13,143 nucleotides of DNA from a virus (lineage: Duplodnaviria > Heunggongvirae > Uroviricota > Caudoviricetes). The notes under the pieces were generated by a model. That model did no database searches. It saw nothing but the letters and a program-made list of their open reading frames with translations, and had not been told where the DNA came from. A program made the position numbers and the translations under genes. How positions within the stretch are numbered: position 1 is the first letter of the stretch; the number at the start of each line of letters is the position of its first letter. The stretch covers positions 1 through 13,143 of IMG/VR virus record IMGVR_UViG_2917413769_000007; one strand, written 5' to 3'. This document shows, piece after piece, positions 5,253 through 12,357 of the stretch.

Positions 5253-5275
5253 TTCGTCGCGTCTCCTGTCGCTGA

Positions 5276-5298
5276 AAACCTGATTAAGCGTAATCAGA
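5276..5298. repeat. 23-bp element AAACCTGATTAAGCGTAATCAGA with internal palindrome, copy 1
   Basis: Identical to 10629..10651. Contains CTGATTA-AGCG-TAATCAG. Lies between the Cro-like and YdaT-like genes; on the transcribed (minus) strand the hairpin is followed by GUUUUC. Confidence 0.5.
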
Positions 5299-5316
5299 TT
5301 TCAAATACGCTCTTTG

Positions 5317-5517
5317 TTAAGCTGCAGTTGTGTTGTTCGGTTCCAGATAAAATTCGGGGTCATATTTCAAAGCCCCATCAGTAACACGATCCAACCTTGC
5401 AGCTCGGCGCTCAGGTATCACATTTCCCCAGCGAGATACTGCTGGAAGTGAAACTCCTGCGGCTCGAGCCAGCTTTGTGGCGCTCCCAAAGAACGCTAAA
5501 GCATCGTTTTTAAACAT
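5317..5517 (-). CDS. dicC: Cro-like HTH regulator, DicC/YdaS family
   Basis: 66 aa, MFKNDALAFFGSATKLARAAGVSLPAVSRWGNVIPERRAARLDRVTDGALKYDP, matches DicC/YdaS pattern from memory; divergent from the repressor gene; SD GGAG 7 nt upstream of ATG. Confidence 0.8.
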   Translation of the reverse strand: MFKNDALAFFGSATKLARAAGVSLPAVSRWGNVIPERRAARLDRVTDGALKYDPEFYLEPNNTTAA

Positions 5518-5598
5518 TGCCGATCTCCATTTTGTTAACTTTAAGAAACAAAATTACGAGTTAAAGAAAATTAAGTCAAGTAAATTTATATTAACTAC
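5518..5598. promoter_or_regulatory. Divergent promoter/operator region of the immunity switch
   Basis: 81-bp AT-rich intergenic region between divergent repressor and cro-like genes; minus-strand -35 TTGACT (complement of 5574..5579); operator-like 18-mer GTTAACTTTAAGAAACAA at 5534..5551 with flanking inverted repeat TTTGTT/AACAAA. Confidence 0.5.
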
Positions 5599-6009
5599 AT
5601 GAACAAAATCAGCCCTGGCGAGCGCATTAAAAAGCGACGTAAAGAACTCAACCTAACTCAGCGTGAAGTCGCAAAACTCGCGCAGGTATCGCACGTCACA
5701 ATCTCTAAATGGGAAAACGATGACAACGAGCCTCAGGGCAGGAACTTGTTCCAGTTGAGTCAGGCCCTGCAATGTTCACCCACCTGGATTTTATACGGGG
5801 ACGAAGACAAACAGCCCGAGCCTCCAGCAGTATCTGAAGAAGATAAGATCACATTAGATGAGCTTGAAGAGCAGCTACTCGAGCTTTTCAGGGCACTACC
5901 CAGTTCAGAAAAAGAACGCCATTTAACTGAGCTTCGCGGAAAAGTGGACGATTTTAATCGTCTGTTTTACGAATTGCTCCAAGCAAGAAAAACCTCCAAG
6001 AAAAAATAA
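5599..6009 (+). CDS. dicA: HTH (XRE-family) repressor, DicA-like
   Basis: 136 aa; HTH segment LTQREVAKLAQVSHVTISKWEN; LQCSPTWILYGDEDKQP and LLELFRALPSSEKE match my recollection of E. coli DicA; no peptidase S24 domain. Confidence 0.9.
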   Translation: MNKISPGERIKKRRKELNLTQREVAKLAQVSHVTISKWENDDNEPQGRNLFQLSQALQCSPTWILYGDEDKQPEPPAVSEEDKITLDELEEQLLELFRALPSSEKERHLTELRGKVDDFNRLFYELLQARKTSKKK

Positions 6010-6045
6010 ATCCATTAAAATCAAATAAATGGATGAGTGTCGCCC

Positions 6046-6110
6046 TTTTATTTAACTTTTATAAACAAATTTATGTTGACTGATAATTTAACCTTTATTA
6101 AATTAACTTC
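6046..6110 (+). promoter_or_regulatory. Candidate early-left promoter with second operator copy
   Basis: TTTAACTTTTATAAACAA (6051..6068) matches the 5534..5551 operator-like 18-mer at 15/18 positions; followed by TTGACT (6076..6081), a 17-nt spacer and TAAATT (6099..6104). Confidence 0.4.
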
Positions 6111-6217
6111 CATCAACGACGCACTAACCACGCGGCAGTTGTTCAGAAAAACGTTCCGCCGCCGGGCGTAAAGCGGATGAGGGAATCGGCGCTAACAACA
6201 AAGCAATGGGGTGAGTG

Positions 6218-6535
6218 ATGGAATTCAGCAAGCTGCCACACGAAGTGCAGGTAATTGCCGCCAAATGCCTGGCAGACGAAATCAATACAGTTTCAGGTTT
6301 TGCAGGCAATGAGGTTAACCGCGGTCCCGCTAAAGAGCAGGCCAAACAGGTTCGTGACGCATTCATTGCTCTTTTTTCAGAGCGCGAGATGGAAGGTGAG
6401 AAAAAAGCGGCAGCAGAGAGAATTGCTGCCACCATCGCAGGCATGCAGCAACTGATTGGTAGCGATGAGGTGCTAAAAACCCAAGTTAAACATCTGATTT
6501 CAGCGACTGAAGATTTGCTTGATAAGTGCCTGTAA
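6218..6535 (+). CDS. Hypothetical protein (105 aa), first gene after the repressor
   Basis: Coding-like composition (MEFSKLPHEVQVIAAKCLADEIN...); GGGGTGAG upstream of ATG; the opposite-strand ORF 6124..6576 is low complexity and judged non-coding. Confidence 0.55.
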   Translation: MEFSKLPHEVQVIAAKCLADEINTVSGFAGNEVNRGPAKEQAKQVRDAFIALFSEREMEGEKKAAAERIAATIAGMQQLIGSDEVLKTQVKHLISATEDLLDKCL

Positions 6536-6736
6536 TTGGTAAGTGACCGATACACCATCTCCGTTAGATGGTCCATCTACATCAGGAAATCGAAGGGTGA
6601 CATTGTTTTTAAGGGCTTTTAGTTGTTCTGAAGTTAACAGTTTAAGGGCTTCATCAAGCATTACGTTTGTTGCTTCCAGAGTGGCTTCTGAGACTTTTGG
6701 CTTAATTTCCTCAAGCATTTTAGAAAGTTGACTCAT
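6500..6736 (-). CDS. Hypothetical protein (78 aa), convergent with 6218..6535
   Basis: Internal ATG at 6736..6734 of the tracked ORF is preceded by AAGG 7 nt upstream; product MSQLSKMLEEIKPKVSEATLEATNVMLDEALKLL...; candidate -10 TATACT (complement of 6769..6774). Confidence 0.4.
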   Translation of the reverse strand: MSQLSKMLEEIKPKVSEATLEATNVMLDEALKLLTSEQLKALKNNVTLRFPDVDGPSNGDGVSVTYQLQALIKQIFSR

Positions 6737-6885
6737 GTTTTTACCTTGCTGGTTATGTGAGAACGCCCAGTATACCACCGAGCCTGAAGTGGCTAAAAGA
6801 CAGGCAACGAATTCGCGGGTCGCCGCCAGTACGATGACATGCGGGAAAGACCGCAATGAATCCAAAATTGCTGTGTGTAGTCTTT

Positions 6886-6912
6886 GCCCAGCCACCACGG
6901 TGGGCACTTTTT
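6886..6912 (+). terminator. Candidate intrinsic terminator (plus strand)
   Basis: GC-rich hairpin GCCCA-N10-TGGGC (or CCAC-CACG-GTGG) followed by ACTTTTTTTC. Confidence 0.45.
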
Positions 6913-7111
6913 TTCACACAGTTACGATTTTACCGTTGTGACTGAGTCTCCAGACGGAGAGGCCAAACCCACAATGTGACACCAGGGAAAGACCGAAGGA
7001 AGTACAACGCCTGACCAGCGTAAACCGAGCATGACCAGCTCTGGCACCGGGGAAGACCGGAAGAGGAAAGACCTGATGGCCTCACCAGCCTGACTGCCGG
7101 GAAAGACCGGC

Positions 7112-7148
7112 ACCCTTTAGATGGCAAAAGGCCCGCACAAGGCGGGCC
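7112..7148 (+). promoter_or_regulatory. nut-like element: boxA-like CCCTTTAG plus boxB-like hairpin
   Basis: CCCTTTA (7113..7119) resembles boxA CGCTCTTTA; 11 nt later a perfect 7-bp GC stem GGCCCGC/GCGGGCC with 5-nt loop ACAAG (7130..7148), not followed by a U tract. Confidence 0.25.
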
Positions 7149-7276
7149 AGTTACCCCGGGCGGCGACCAAACCACCCGGATTGTTCCGCAGGGGACCAAC
7201 CCTGCGGAGAGGAAAGACCAATGCAGGACAGAGCCAACACTGATCGGCTCTGAGTATATATCACTAAGGAGCCGCT

Positions 7277-11093: not shown

Positions 11094-12113
11094 ATGGGGC
11101 GCAGAAGAAAGGATCCGGGTGATAACAGGTTACCCCCGCGCGTATCAAAAACCAGAACTCGTTACTACTACAAACCCACCTCGCGGGAGACCGTGACGCT
11201 TGGACCAATCACCTTCACTATGTCGGCGTTATGGAAACGGTACGAAGAAGAGCGACGCAATTATTCAGATGTGATGACGTTCGAAAAGCTCTGGAAGATG
11301 TTTCTTAAAAGCGCCTACTACACCGAGCTTGCAATACGAACCCAGCGGGATTACCTGCAACATCAGAAAAAACTACTTGTCGTATTCGGTAAAGTTAAAG
11401 CTGATTTAATCAAACCGGAAGACGTTCGTCAGTTTATGGATCGTCGTGGCCTACAAAGTAAAAATCAGGCTAACCAGGAAATGAGCAGTATGTCGCGTGT
11501 TTACCGCTGGGGATACGAACGCGGTTACGTTAAGGGAAACCCGTGCGCCGGCGTCAGTAAATTCTCTCTCAAGGCCCGCGAGCAATACATCACTGACGAA
11601 GACTACCTGGCGATTTATAAACATGCAGATCACGTCGTCAGGGCAGCAATGGAAATATCGTACCTGTGCGCAGCCCGGCAAGCTGATGTACTCGCTCTGC
11701 GCTGGATGCAGATATCTGACAAGGGGATTTTTATCCAGCAGGGTAAGACAGGGAAAAAGCAAATTAAGGTGTGGACGCCCCGCCTTCGGCAGGCGCTGGA
11801 AACGGCACAGACAGAATGCCCGAGGCTCTCACCTGATTCACTGGTTATCTATAACAACGATCGTGCTCAGTTCATCCGCAAGACGTTCAATAATCGCTGG
11901 CTAAAGGCCGTACGTGCCGCACAAAGCGAACTGGGCCGGCAACTGGATTACACGTTTCACGATATAAAGGCAAAAGCCATTTCAGATTTTGAGGGGAGTA
12001 GCAGGGATAAGCAGATATTTAGCGGTCACAAAACAGAAAGTCAGGTGCTTATCTACGACAGAAAGGTGCAAATCAGTCCGACGCTGGATCGTCCTTTGAT
12101 AAATGGCCAGTAG
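11094..12113 (+). CDS. int: Tyrosine recombinase / phage integrase
   Basis: 339 aa; alignable by eye to lambda Int catalytic region: AARQADVLALRW (Arg-I), QQGKTGKK (Lys), TFHDIKAKAISDF (His box), FSGHKTESQVLIYDRK (His-II and Tyr). Confidence 0.9.
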   Translation: MGRRRKDPGDNRLPPRVSKTRTRYYYKPTSRETVTLGPITFTMSALWKRYEEERRNYSDVMTFEKLWKMFLKSAYYTELAIRTQRDYLQHQKKLLVVFGKVKADLIKPEDVRQFMDRRGLQSKNQANQEMSSMSRVYRWGYERGYVKGNPCAGVSKFSLKAREQYITDEDYLAIYKHADHVVRAAMEISYLCAARQADVLALRWMQISDKGIFIQQGKTGKKQIKVWTPRLRQALETAQTECPRLSPDSLVIYNNDRAQFIRKTFNNRWLKAVRAAQSELGRQLDYTFHDIKAKAISDFEGSSRDKQIFSGHKTESQVLIYDRKVQISPTLDRPLINGQ

Positions 12114-12212: not shown

Positions 12213-12357
12213 GTCCATTTTTCAGATATGGTCGGGTAGCGCGTATACCGAAAAACAGCCGAAAGGTTAAGGATACGGGCCGACTTTGCACGGTGTTCAA
12301 GTACCTGACCGCCCTGCTGAACACAGGGCTATCTGAACAAATGCAAAGGACATAAAA

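What the first reader, a model, noticed from the sequence alone, without database searches (positions are those of the whole stretch)
6218..6736. Convergent small-gene pair with overlapping 3' ends directly downstream of the repressor
A 105-aa plus-strand ORF (6218..6535) and a 78-aa minus-strand ORF (6500..6736) both have coding-like composition and their own SD; they overlap by 36 bp at their 3' ends, and the minus-strand gene has a candidate promoter (TATACT). A counter-transcribed gene in the early-left operon next to the repressor is a common place for exclusion or accessory modules.
Basis: inference. Interest (0 to 1): 0.4.

Follow-up and report, generated by a model that had tools for sequence, protein, structure and literature searches.

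The report
Convergent genes in prophage cargo slot
Two small overlapping genes next to a prophage repressor are both real, and the backward-facing one is one of many interchangeable cargo genes that sit behind the same conserved promoter in related prophages, a slot found in about one in six E. coli genomes whose function is still unknown.

Summary
Both are genuine genes. Homologues at 57-96% identity show third-codon-position substitution bias, and the pair, with the same 36-bp overlap, recurs in six different lambdoid prophage backgrounds.

The context needs correcting. Operator repeats and a promoter (6040-6117) lie between the repressor and ORF+, so ORF+ is the first gene of the early-left (PL) operon. 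It is not a rex-like gene co-transcribed with cI.

ORF- sits behind a ~60-nt element (6744-6805) carrying an extended -10 (TGgTATACT) and a Shine-Dalgarno sequence. This element occurs in over 119 viral contigs and 848 of 5426 complete E. coli genomes. On the minus strand it precedes at least 16 unrelated small cargo genes. The ORF- terminator lies inside ORF+, and the ORF+ C-terminal tail travels with the cargo.

Positional equivalents are e14 ymfJ/ymfI and Rac ydaF/sieB, both reported as convergent excludons.

Most likely ORF- is a prophage-expressed moron that PL read-through silences. Its biochemical function is unknown: there are no family or fold matches.

The parts
6040..6117 (+). OL/PL: operator-like repeats and the early-left promoter (TTGACT 6076-6081, 17-nt spacer, TAAATT 6099-6104)
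   Evidence: Repeats are shared with the cro/cI intergenic OR region: 5527-5556 versus 6044-6073 is 80% over 30 nt, with further copies at 6083-6102 and 6098-6117. L014 has the same layout: TTGACC, 17 nt, TAACTT, then the same leader and an ORF+ homologue.
6108..6217 (+). PL leader and ORF+ ribosome-binding region
   Evidence: 6108-6156 is 98% identical in the E. coli strain 44 prophage (L002), which has a different immunity region and lacks the cassette. It is also conserved in L014.
6218..6535 (+). ORF+ (105 aa, pI 5.2, three predicted helices). N-domain is residues 1-57 (6218-6388). The cassette-linked C-terminal tail is residues 62-105 (6401-6535).
   Evidence: Homologues. Coding signature in the N-domain (194/128/392) and in the tail outside the overlap (150/89/226). 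The N-domain is shared with PHROG families of unknown function and with Xenorhabdus/Photorhabdus phage proteins. AF2 gives pLDDT 72 and pTM 0.32.
6500..6736 (-). ORF- (78 aa, pI 5.3, three predicted helices, no membrane segment), the cargo gene
   Evidence: Homologues at 64-96% identity with a conserved MSQ[LI]SK start. Codon-position bias 18/12/40. Distant 77-80-aa relatives. AF2 gives pLDDT 80 and pTM 0.59.
6500..6535 (.). 36-bp overlap of the two coding 3' ends
   Evidence: The overlap is exactly 36 bp in W, L003/L004, L005, L009/L010, L011 and L015. It is 39 bp in the distant ORF- relatives.
6398..6433 (-). Intrinsic-terminator-like hairpin plus T-run for the ORF- transcript, embedded in ORF+ codons (motif GEKKAAAERIAAT)
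   Evidence: One search reports 10 pairs followed by TTTTTTCTC. It is conserved in all six pair-bearing loci, while the T-run is broken in L006, which lacks ORF-. Minus-strand terminators follow cargo genes in 59 of 95 distinct regions, against 24 of 95 when the same DNA is read on the + strand.
6744..6805 (-). Conserved promoter/5'UTR element of the cargo slot: -10 TATACT 6774-6769, extended TG 6777-6776, weak -35 near 6797-6791, inferred start near 6762-6764; the SD AAGGT (6747-6743) straddles its left edge
   Evidence: 84-98% identical between copies whose ORFs are about 70% identical and whose right flanks are unrelated. Exact core found in over 119 IMG/VR contigs, 7 enterobacterial genomes and 848 of 5426 E. 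coli genomes. In 127 loci a minus-strand ATG lies 17-22 nt from it.
6157..6795 (.). The 639-bp segment (ORF+, ORF- and most of the promoter element) that is present or absent between related prophages
   Evidence: In L002, window 6108-6156 joins window 6796-6861 through 11 unrelated bases. L001 also lacks the segment.

Best explanation
The window is the immunity and early-left region of a Rac/e14/SfV-type lambdoid prophage, apparently from Escherichia sp. E1130.

ORF- is an autonomous 'moron' transcription unit. It has its own sigma-70 promoter of the extended -10 type, a fixed 5'UTR and Shine-Dalgarno sequence (all inside a ~60-nt element conserved across hundreds of prophages), a 78-aa acidic helical protein, and an intrinsic terminator about 100 nt past its stop. 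That terminator lies inside the coding sequence of ORF+.

ORF+ is the first gene transcribed from the repressor-controlled PL promoter. Its N-terminal domain is a widespread phage domain. Its last ~45 residues are encoded on the antisense strand of the ORF- 3'UTR and 3' end, and they are inherited together with ORF-.

Proposed working:
1. In the lysogen, cI shuts PL and the cargo promoter is free, so ORF- is made. It probably gives a lysogen-benefit function such as interference with other phages.
2. After induction or infection, PL fires, ORF+ is made, and PL transcription runs head-on through the whole ORF- unit. This gives promoter occlusion, polymerase collision and a full-length antisense RNA, which together switch ORF- off. 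That is a convergent excludon, as with sieB and the sas antisense RNA in P22.

Shown here: gene reality, anatomy, present/absent status, slot generality, and tail-cargo co-inheritance.
Inferred: promoter and terminator activity, mutually exclusive expression, and the biological role of the proteins.
For: - Both genes are under purifying selection.
- The pair and its 36-bp overlap are conserved in six different prophage backgrounds, always after PL and before the kil/recombination genes.
- OL/PL lies between cI and ORF+.
- The cassette is absent from otherwise collinear prophages.
- The conserved element has the geometry of a promoter plus 5'UTR.
- In 127 loci the element precedes at least 16 unrelated minus-strand cargo families.
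- 3' overlaps of 20-65 bp with a convergent + gene are common across cargo families.
- Cargo terminators are enriched on the minus strand (59/95 versus 24/95). The ORF- terminator is conserved inside ORF+ and is degraded where ORF- is missing.
- Chimeric proteins (L048, L094) combine the ORF+ N-domain with the YmfJ tail when the cargo is YmfI-like.
- E. coli K-12 e14 has the same layout with a 100% identical element.
- RNA-seq in K-12 classifies ymfI-ymfJ and sieB-ydaF as convergent excludons (PMC12288877).
- ymfJ is induced late in the SOS response like other CI-controlled e14 genes, whereas ymfI changes little (PMC11002266).
- There is a precedent for antisense control of a prophage exclusion gene: P22 sieB and sas (PMC12197685).
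Against: - No transcript or protein data exist for this locus. The promoter was not picked up by the consensus scan because its -35 is weak.
- 36 of 95 cargo regions have no terminator by my criteria.
- The function of ORF- is unsupported by any homology: Pfam, NCBIfam, PADLOC, PHROGs, PDB sequence and Foldseek searches all found nothing. Unlike SieB it has no membrane segment.
- Tail-cargo co-inheritance could be mere physical linkage.
- The element is conserved well beyond what a promoter needs. A two-site association (G..C 85, A..T 34, G..T 4, A..C 0) hints at an extra role, either an operator or a structure in + strand RNA.
Confidence: 0.5

Rival explanations
1. The overlap is an incidental by-product of cassette insertion and genome compaction. 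Both genes are real and independently useful, but convergent transcription has no regulatory meaning, and the ORF+ tail is just whatever reading frame the inserted moron offers.
For: Cargo cassettes are swapped between conserved anchors. Overlap length varies from -30 to +72 bp between cargo families. The 82-aa ORF+ variants end in a low-complexity tail where ORF- is absent.
Against: The overlap is exactly 36 bp in copies only about 70% identical at the DNA level. The tail outside the overlap keeps a coding signature of 150/89/226. The tail is conserved with its cargo across different N-domains. Positional equivalents behave as excludons in RNA-seq.
Confidence: 0.25
2. The pair is a two-protein module. 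ORF- is an effector made in the lysogen (abortive infection, exclusion or a toxin). The ORF+ C-terminal tail, made early from PL, binds and neutralises it so that the phage escapes its own cargo. This would be cognate self-immunity, as with SieB/Esc or BstA/aba.
For: ORF- always occurs with the same tail family, even when the N-terminal part of the + protein differs. Distant relatives give hhalign E 2.5e-4 in register, with a 39-bp overlap. YmfI-type cargo likewise always comes with a YmfJ-type tail. Both proteins are small, acidic and helical, as many binding partners are.
Against: Physical overlap alone would explain the co-inheritance. L006 keeps the full ORF+ tail with a different cargo. 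No homology to any toxin, antitoxin or defence family. The tail homology is weak (probability 43%). No complex prediction could be run.
Confidence: 0.15
3. ORF- is not a lysogen-benefit gene. It is an immediate-early lytic or anti-defence/host-takeover factor expressed from an unrepressed promoter as soon as the DNA enters a cell.
For: The promoter has no recognisable cI operator (one search found operator repeats only at 5527-5596 and 6044-6117). Small acidic early proteins are typical anti-defence factors (established knowledge).
Against: A head-on orientation against the strongest early promoter is a poor design for an early lytic gene. The positional equivalent sieB is a prophage-expressed exclusion gene (annotation; reviews). 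ymfI is barely induced when e14 is derepressed.
Confidence: 0.08
4. One of the two ORFs is an antisense artefact, or ORF+ is a rex-like gene co-transcribed with cI.
For: The window has many chance ORFs. The cI terminator is weak in this window.
Against: The two ORFs share only 36 bp, and each has its own codon-position signature and conserved length. Operators and a promoter lie between cI and ORF+. The e14 equivalent ymfJ behaves as a CI-repressed, late-SOS gene and its protein was detected.
Confidence: 0.02

Closest known systems
E. coli K-12 e14 prophage ymfJ / ymfI
   Same: Same layout: cI-like repressor (ymfK), first downstream gene ymfJ, convergent ymfI with a 63-bp 3' overlap, then the same conserved element (100% identical to the consensus) directly upstream of ymfI, then the remaining leftward genes. 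RNA-seq reports it as a convergent excludon. ymfJ is induced late in the SOS response.
   Different: The proteins are unrelated to this pair: YmfJ versus ORF+ gives E 7, and YmfI is a different cargo family (phrog_8894). Both K-12 proteins are themselves uncharacterised.
Rac prophage ydaG-ydaF / sieB (and P22/lambda sieB with the sas antisense RNA)
   Same: A counter-transcribed, prophage-expressed gene convergent on small genes next to the repressor, with overlapping 3' ends. It is followed by the KilS sRNA and kilR, and the window has a KilS-like sRNA in the same place. sieB-ydaF is listed as an excludon. In P22, sieB is controlled by a cis-antisense RNA.
   Different: ORF- has no SieB similarity and no membrane segment. 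Rac carries only a diverged copy of the element. No exclusion phenotype is known for ORF-.
Morons of lambdoid phages (Juhala et al. 2000; Cumby et al. 2012, PMC3594210)
   Same: An extra gene with its own promoter and terminator, present or absent between related phages and lower in G+C (ORF- 40% against 49% for the window).
   Different: Here the promoter is not brought in by each moron. It is a fixed, conserved anchor shared by at least 16 unrelated cargos. The moron's terminator and 3' end also double as coding sequence for the neighbouring operon gene.
Prophage defence hotspots (P2/P4 hotspots, PMC9122126; cI-proximal rexAB, BstA, GiPD474, PMC12724215)
   Same: A hypervariable cargo position flanked by conserved sequence in a temperate phage, close to the immunity region.
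   Different: This slot lies after PL, not in the cI transcript. Its cargos are single very small genes (59-163 aa) with no match to PADLOC models. No defence has been demonstrated.

Membership tests
Moron (independent transcription unit added to a phage genome) | Present or absent between otherwise collinear relatives | tested here: met
   Window 6157-6795 is replaced by 11 bp in L002 and is absent in L001.
Moron (independent transcription unit added to a phage genome) | Own promoter and own terminator | tested here: inconclusive
   Sequence-level only. There is an extended -10 TGgTATACT with an SD at fixed distance, and a hairpin plus T-run at 6433-6398. Neither activity was measured.
Convergent excludon | Convergent genes whose transcripts overlap | tested here: inconclusive
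   The coding overlap of 36 bp is shown. A transcript overlap of about 137 nt is inferred from the terminator position. RNA-seq evidence exists only for the positional equivalents ymfI-ymfJ and sieB-ydaF.
Convergent excludon | Mutually exclusive expression of the two genes | not testable with these tools
   Needs strand-specific RNA-seq of the lysogen with and without induction.
SieB superinfection exclusion protein | Sequence membership (Pfam/PHROG SieB) and membrane-protein character | tested here: not met
   No Pfam or PHROG hit for ORF-. The maximum 19-residue hydropathy is 0.51, so there is no membrane segment. Only the genomic position matches.
Type II toxin-antitoxin pair | Co-directional bicistronic operon of two small proteins with recognisable toxin or antitoxin folds | tested here: not met
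   The genes are convergent. There are no Pfam, NCBIfam, PADLOC, PDB or Foldseek matches.
rexAB-like genes co-transcribed with cI | Located between cI and OL/PL, in the PRM transcript | tested here: not met
   Operator repeats and the PL-like promoter (6040-6117) lie between cI and ORF+.
N-type antiterminator (first PL gene of lambda) | Arginine-rich RNA-binding motif at the N-terminus; basic, disordered protein | tested here: not met
   ORF+ is acidic (pI 5.17) and helical, with N-terminus MEFSKLPHEVQ. The gene is dispensable, being absent in L001 and L002. Only the position matches.

The most novel reading that the evidence does not exclude
The pair is one instance of an undescribed, promoter-anchored hypervariable cargo slot in the early-left operon of e14/Rac/SfV-type prophages. 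Part of the element occurs in about 16% of complete E. coli genomes, and at least 80% of it in about 7%. Each swappable cassette carries two things. One is a small counter-transcribed gene expressed in the lysogen. The other, on the opposite strand, is the C-terminal tail of the first PL protein. Together they would form matched two-part modules: a lysogen effector, plus an early-lytic partner or antisense off-switch. The slot would hold at least 16 uncharacterised small-protein families that act in phage-phage or phage-host conflict.
Probability: 0.3. Interest if true: 0.7.

Novelty: new member of a known kind. Interest (0 to 1): 0.5.

Why it matters
A counter-transcribed accessory gene in the early-left region is a known kind of feature (sieB, ymfI), and this pair is a new, rare and uncharacterised member. 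The more useful result is the general pattern it exposes.

- A single ~60-nt conserved promoter/5'UTR marks a slot holding at least 16 unrelated small genes across hundreds of enterobacterial prophages. E. coli K-12 e14 is one of them, so the slot can be studied with standard genetics.
- The element gives a simple sequence handle for harvesting prophage-expressed small proteins that family-based defence finders miss.
- It gives a tractable model of how convergent transcription could couple a lysogen function to the lytic switch.
- It explains why the C-terminus of the first PL protein is mosaic.
- It shows that database annotations of ORF- (90-132 aa) are over-extended through the promoter.

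Tried and rejected
- Family searches for both proteins in Pfam, NCBIfam and PADLOC found nothing. PHROGs gave only unknown-function hits to the ORF+ N-domain.
- PDB profile searches gave only E > 0.3.
- The AF2 models are helical. Foldseek against the PDB (ORF-) and BFVD (ORF+) gave no match with E < 1.
- The search for related loci with the protein alignments found nothing in the GTDB representatives. In IMG/VR it found only two distant ORF+ relatives, and nothing for ORF-. The DNA pattern of the conserved element was far more productive.
- The whole-library profile search for ORF- found only about 7 related clusters and no informative fusions.
- PADLOC and Pfam on ten representatives of the cargo families (with YmfJ included in the PADLOC set) gave no defence assignment.
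- Rejected: the svsR/C0293 sRNAs as the identity of the element. They map to the cI 3' end, not here.
- Rejected: a canonical LexA box in the element. My reading of the sequence gives CTG-N11/15-CAG, not N10.
- Rejected: the 150-aa antisense ORF 6124-6576 as a gene.
- Unresolved: whether the inverted repeat [G/A]CTGG-N13-CCAG[C/T] in the element is a pairing in + strand RNA, an operator, or just two linked haplotypes.
- Direct BLASTP of ORF+ against the 101-aa partner of the distant ORF- relatives was not significant (E 26). Only the profile comparison hints at tail homology.

Full report
**1. Observation**

The window carries a cro-like gene (5517-5317, minus strand) and an HTH-only cI-like repressor (5599-6009, plus strand). 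To the right lie a RecE-like exonuclease, a Gp157/Gam-like gene and an integrase, all on the plus strand. The plus strand is therefore the 'leftward' early direction of a lambdoid prophage.

ORF+ is 6218-6535 (105 aa), ORF- is 6736-6500 (78 aa), and they overlap by 36 bp. Both have Shine-Dalgarno sequences. Protein P0011 is 100% identical over ORF-, and its contig has the same gene layout. This points to Escherichia sp. E1130 as the source.

**2. Are both genes real?**

ORFs of this size are common by chance: the window has 95 of at least 40 aa. Conservation therefore decides the question.

- ORF+ has full-length homologues at 56-95% identity, and ORF- at 64-96%, in Salmonella, Citrobacter, Klebsiella and E. 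coli.
- Against diverged copies, substitutions by codon position 1/2/3 are 30/13/56 for ORF+ and 18/12/40 for ORF-. This bias also holds in the ORF+ tail outside the overlap (150/89/226).
- The 150-aa ORF antisense to ORF+ is not kept open in homologues.
- The longer annotated forms of ORF- (132, 108 and 90 aa) differ upstream of a conserved MSQ[LI]SK start. They simply translate the conserved promoter element.
- The pair occurs in six independent prophage backgrounds with different repressors, replication modules and recombination modules. The overlap is 36 bp in every one.

**3. Where the pair sits**

The AT-rich stretch 6040-6117 contains repeats shared with the cro/cI intergenic operator region: 5527-5556 versus 6044-6073 is 80% over 30 nt, with two more copies. 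It also contains a promoter-like TTGACT-17-TAAATT at 6076-6104. L014, which has another immunity type, shows the same arrangement: cI terminator, TTGACC-17-TAACTT, the same leader, then an ORF+ homologue.

ORF+ is therefore the first gene of the PL operon, not a rex-like passenger of the cI transcript. In prophages that do carry rex-like cargo after cI (L003, L011, L012), ORF+ still comes after that cargo.

The segment 6157-6795, which holds ORF+, ORF- and most of the element, is absent from the otherwise collinear E. coli strain 44 prophage. There 11 bp join 6156 to 6796.

**4. The conserved element and the slot**

Immediately upstream of ORF- lies a ~60-nt block (6744-6805). It is 84-98% identical between copies whose ORFs are about 70% identical and whose right flanks are unrelated. 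It is kept even in L006, where ORF- is replaced by another gene.

Its core, CCAGYATACCACYGAGCCT, gave the following:
- 7 enterobacterial species-representative genomes, plus four evident chance hits in unrelated organisms;
- annotated phages SfII, SfV (partial) and Klebsiella ST405-OXA48phi1.2;
- 848 of 5426 complete E. coli genomes, 366 of them with at least 80% of the element.

In 127 oriented loci a minus-strand ATG lies 17-22 nt from the element's left edge, behind the same AAGG Shine-Dalgarno. It opens at least 16 mutually unrelated small ORFs of 59-163 aa. The largest groups are a zinc-ribbon family (29 loci), the YmfI family (27), a 64-aa family (15) and the ORF- family (12). Most match PHROG families of unknown function, and none matches a Pfam domain above threshold or a PADLOC model.

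Read on the minus strand, the block runs from roughly -50 to the ribosome-binding site of a promoter with TGnTATRCT. It is best read as a fixed promoter/5'UTR serving an exchangeable cargo gene.

**5. Terminator and the ORF+ tail**

About 96 nt past the ORF- stop, on the minus strand, is a 10-pair hairpin followed by TTTTTTCTC (6433-6398). It lies within the ORF+ codons for GEKKAAAERIAAT.

- It is conserved in all six pair-bearing loci. In L006, which lacks ORF-, the lysines are AAG codons and the T-run is broken.
- Across cargo families, minus-strand terminator-like sites follow the cargo in 59 of 95 distinct regions. The same DNA read on the plus strand gives 24 of 95.
- The predicted ORF- mRNA (about 6763 to 6399) is therefore antisense to ORF+ codons 61-105.

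That same part of ORF+ behaves as part of the cassette:
- Proteins in L048 and L094 have the ORF+ N-domain (52-56% identity over residues 1-54) fused to the C-terminal 60 residues of YmfJ (52-63%). Their cargo is YmfI-like.
- Distant ORF- relatives (42% identity, E 6e-4) pair with a 101-aa plus-strand protein that has a different N-terminus. Its tail aligns in register with the ORF+ tail (hhalign E 2.5e-4, probability 43%). The overlap there is 39 bp and the terminator lies at +100.
- 3' overlaps of 20-65 bp are common across cargo families.

The N-domain itself is a wider phage domain, found in Salmonella, Klebsiella, Xenorhabdus and Photorhabdus, often followed by an acidic tail. In Xenorhabdus locus L007 it again faces a convergent gene that by eye resembles the L061 cargo, which is phrog_8894, the YmfI family.

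**6. Known equivalents**

E. coli K-12 e14 has the same layout: ymfK (repressor), ymfJ, convergent ymfI with a 63-bp overlap, the element at 100% identity, then ymfH-xisE-intE. Rac has racR, ydaG, ydaF, convergent sieB, a diverged element, the sRNA KilS, then kilR.

A transcriptome survey lists both ymfI-ymfJ and sieB-ydaF among convergent excludons of K-12 (PMC12288877). In an SOS time course, ymfJ rises late (log2 4-4.8) together with ymfM and intE, and YmfJ protein is detected. ymfI changes by only 1-2 log2 units (PMC11002266). That fits a repressor-controlled first gene facing an independently transcribed cargo. P22 sieB is controlled by a cis-antisense RNA, sas (PMC12197685, PMC7067206).

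**7. Mechanism**

The best-supported reading is as follows. ORF- is a moron-type unit expressed when PL is repressed. On derepression, ORF+ is made, and PL transcription crosses the whole ORF- unit head-on and shuts it off.

The anatomy, the present/absent status and the generality of the slot are shown here. Promoter and terminator activity, reciprocal expression and any phenotype are inferred.

Both proteins are small, acidic (pI 5.2-5.3), helical and soluble. They have no family or fold match. The ORF- family is tiny, with about 7 clusters among 1.84 billion representatives. A lysogen-benefit role such as interference with other phages is the most likely function by position. The tail-cargo coupling keeps open a protein-level partner or self-immunity relation. 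Neither has been demonstrated.

**8. Verdict**

The pair is a new, uncharacterised member of a known kind, namely a counter-transcribed prophage accessory gene forming a convergent excludon.

To my knowledge, and in the searches run here, two features have not been described: the promoter-anchored hypervariable slot, and the co-inherited tail of the neighbouring gene. They are testable in E. coli K-12.

Noticed in passing
window 6860-6915 (+); Rfam hit 6787-6915: There is an sRNA-like element with a strong terminator whose core, ATTGCTGTGTGTAGTC, is identical to the Rac sRNA KilS (b4833) and to the 3' half of RprA. The Rfam RprA score is 50.6 bits, below the gathering score of 70. It occupies the same position as kilS in Rac, between the counter-transcribed gene and the kil/recombination genes. 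The core is also present in L001, L002, L009, L010 and L012-L014. The paper that describes KilS does not mention RprA at all (0 occurrences).
   Followed up: partly
window 6844-7219 (+), also 7636 and 10857 (+), 4787 and 1757 (-): GGRAAGACC occurs 10 times against 0.2 expected. Every copy lies in the sense orientation of early transcription: six are clustered in the PL leader and two lie at PR-operon gene junctions. Several form GAAAGA loops on 4-6-bp GC stems, which resembles boxB. The leader 6920-7276 folds with z = -5.0, and the motif array is conserved in L002. No N-like protein was found. These may be RNA-level sites for antitermination or for an RNA-binding protein.
   Followed up: partly
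window 12230-12318 (+): Rfam sRNA-Xcc1 (RF02221) matches at 68.3 bits, above the gathering score of 53. The site is just downstream of the integrase gene (11094-12113).
   Followed up: no
window 6744-6805 and about 130 related loci: Within the conserved element, the inverted repeat [G/A]CTGG-N13-CCAG[C/T] shows a two-site association: G..C 85, A..T 34, G..T 4, A..C 0. The right arm overlaps the -10. This could be an operator, a hairpin in the + strand PL transcript, or two linked haplotypes.
   Followed up: partly
window 7123-7150 (-): A GC-rich hairpin followed by a T-run on the minus strand (GGCCCGCCTTGTGCGGGCC TTTT) lies inside the PL leader. It was picked up as weak Trp-leader and isrB hits. 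No minus-strand gene is upstream of it.
   Followed up: no
L006 5441-5653 (-) versus 5261-5650 (+): The gene caller chose a 129-aa + strand ORF. However, a 70-aa zinc-ribbon ORF on the minus strand starts at the canonical distance from the conserved element and belongs to the largest cargo family (29 loci). The + strand call is probably wrong.
   Followed up: partly
L003 4671-5537; L012 3048-4464; L011 3742-4572: Between cI and PL (the rex position), related prophages carry other cargo: DUF7946/DUF7947 (weak PADLOC PDC-S42 hit), a 353-aa protein plus an ASCH protein, and DUF6414. This is a second, separate variable position next to the repressor.
   Followed up: no
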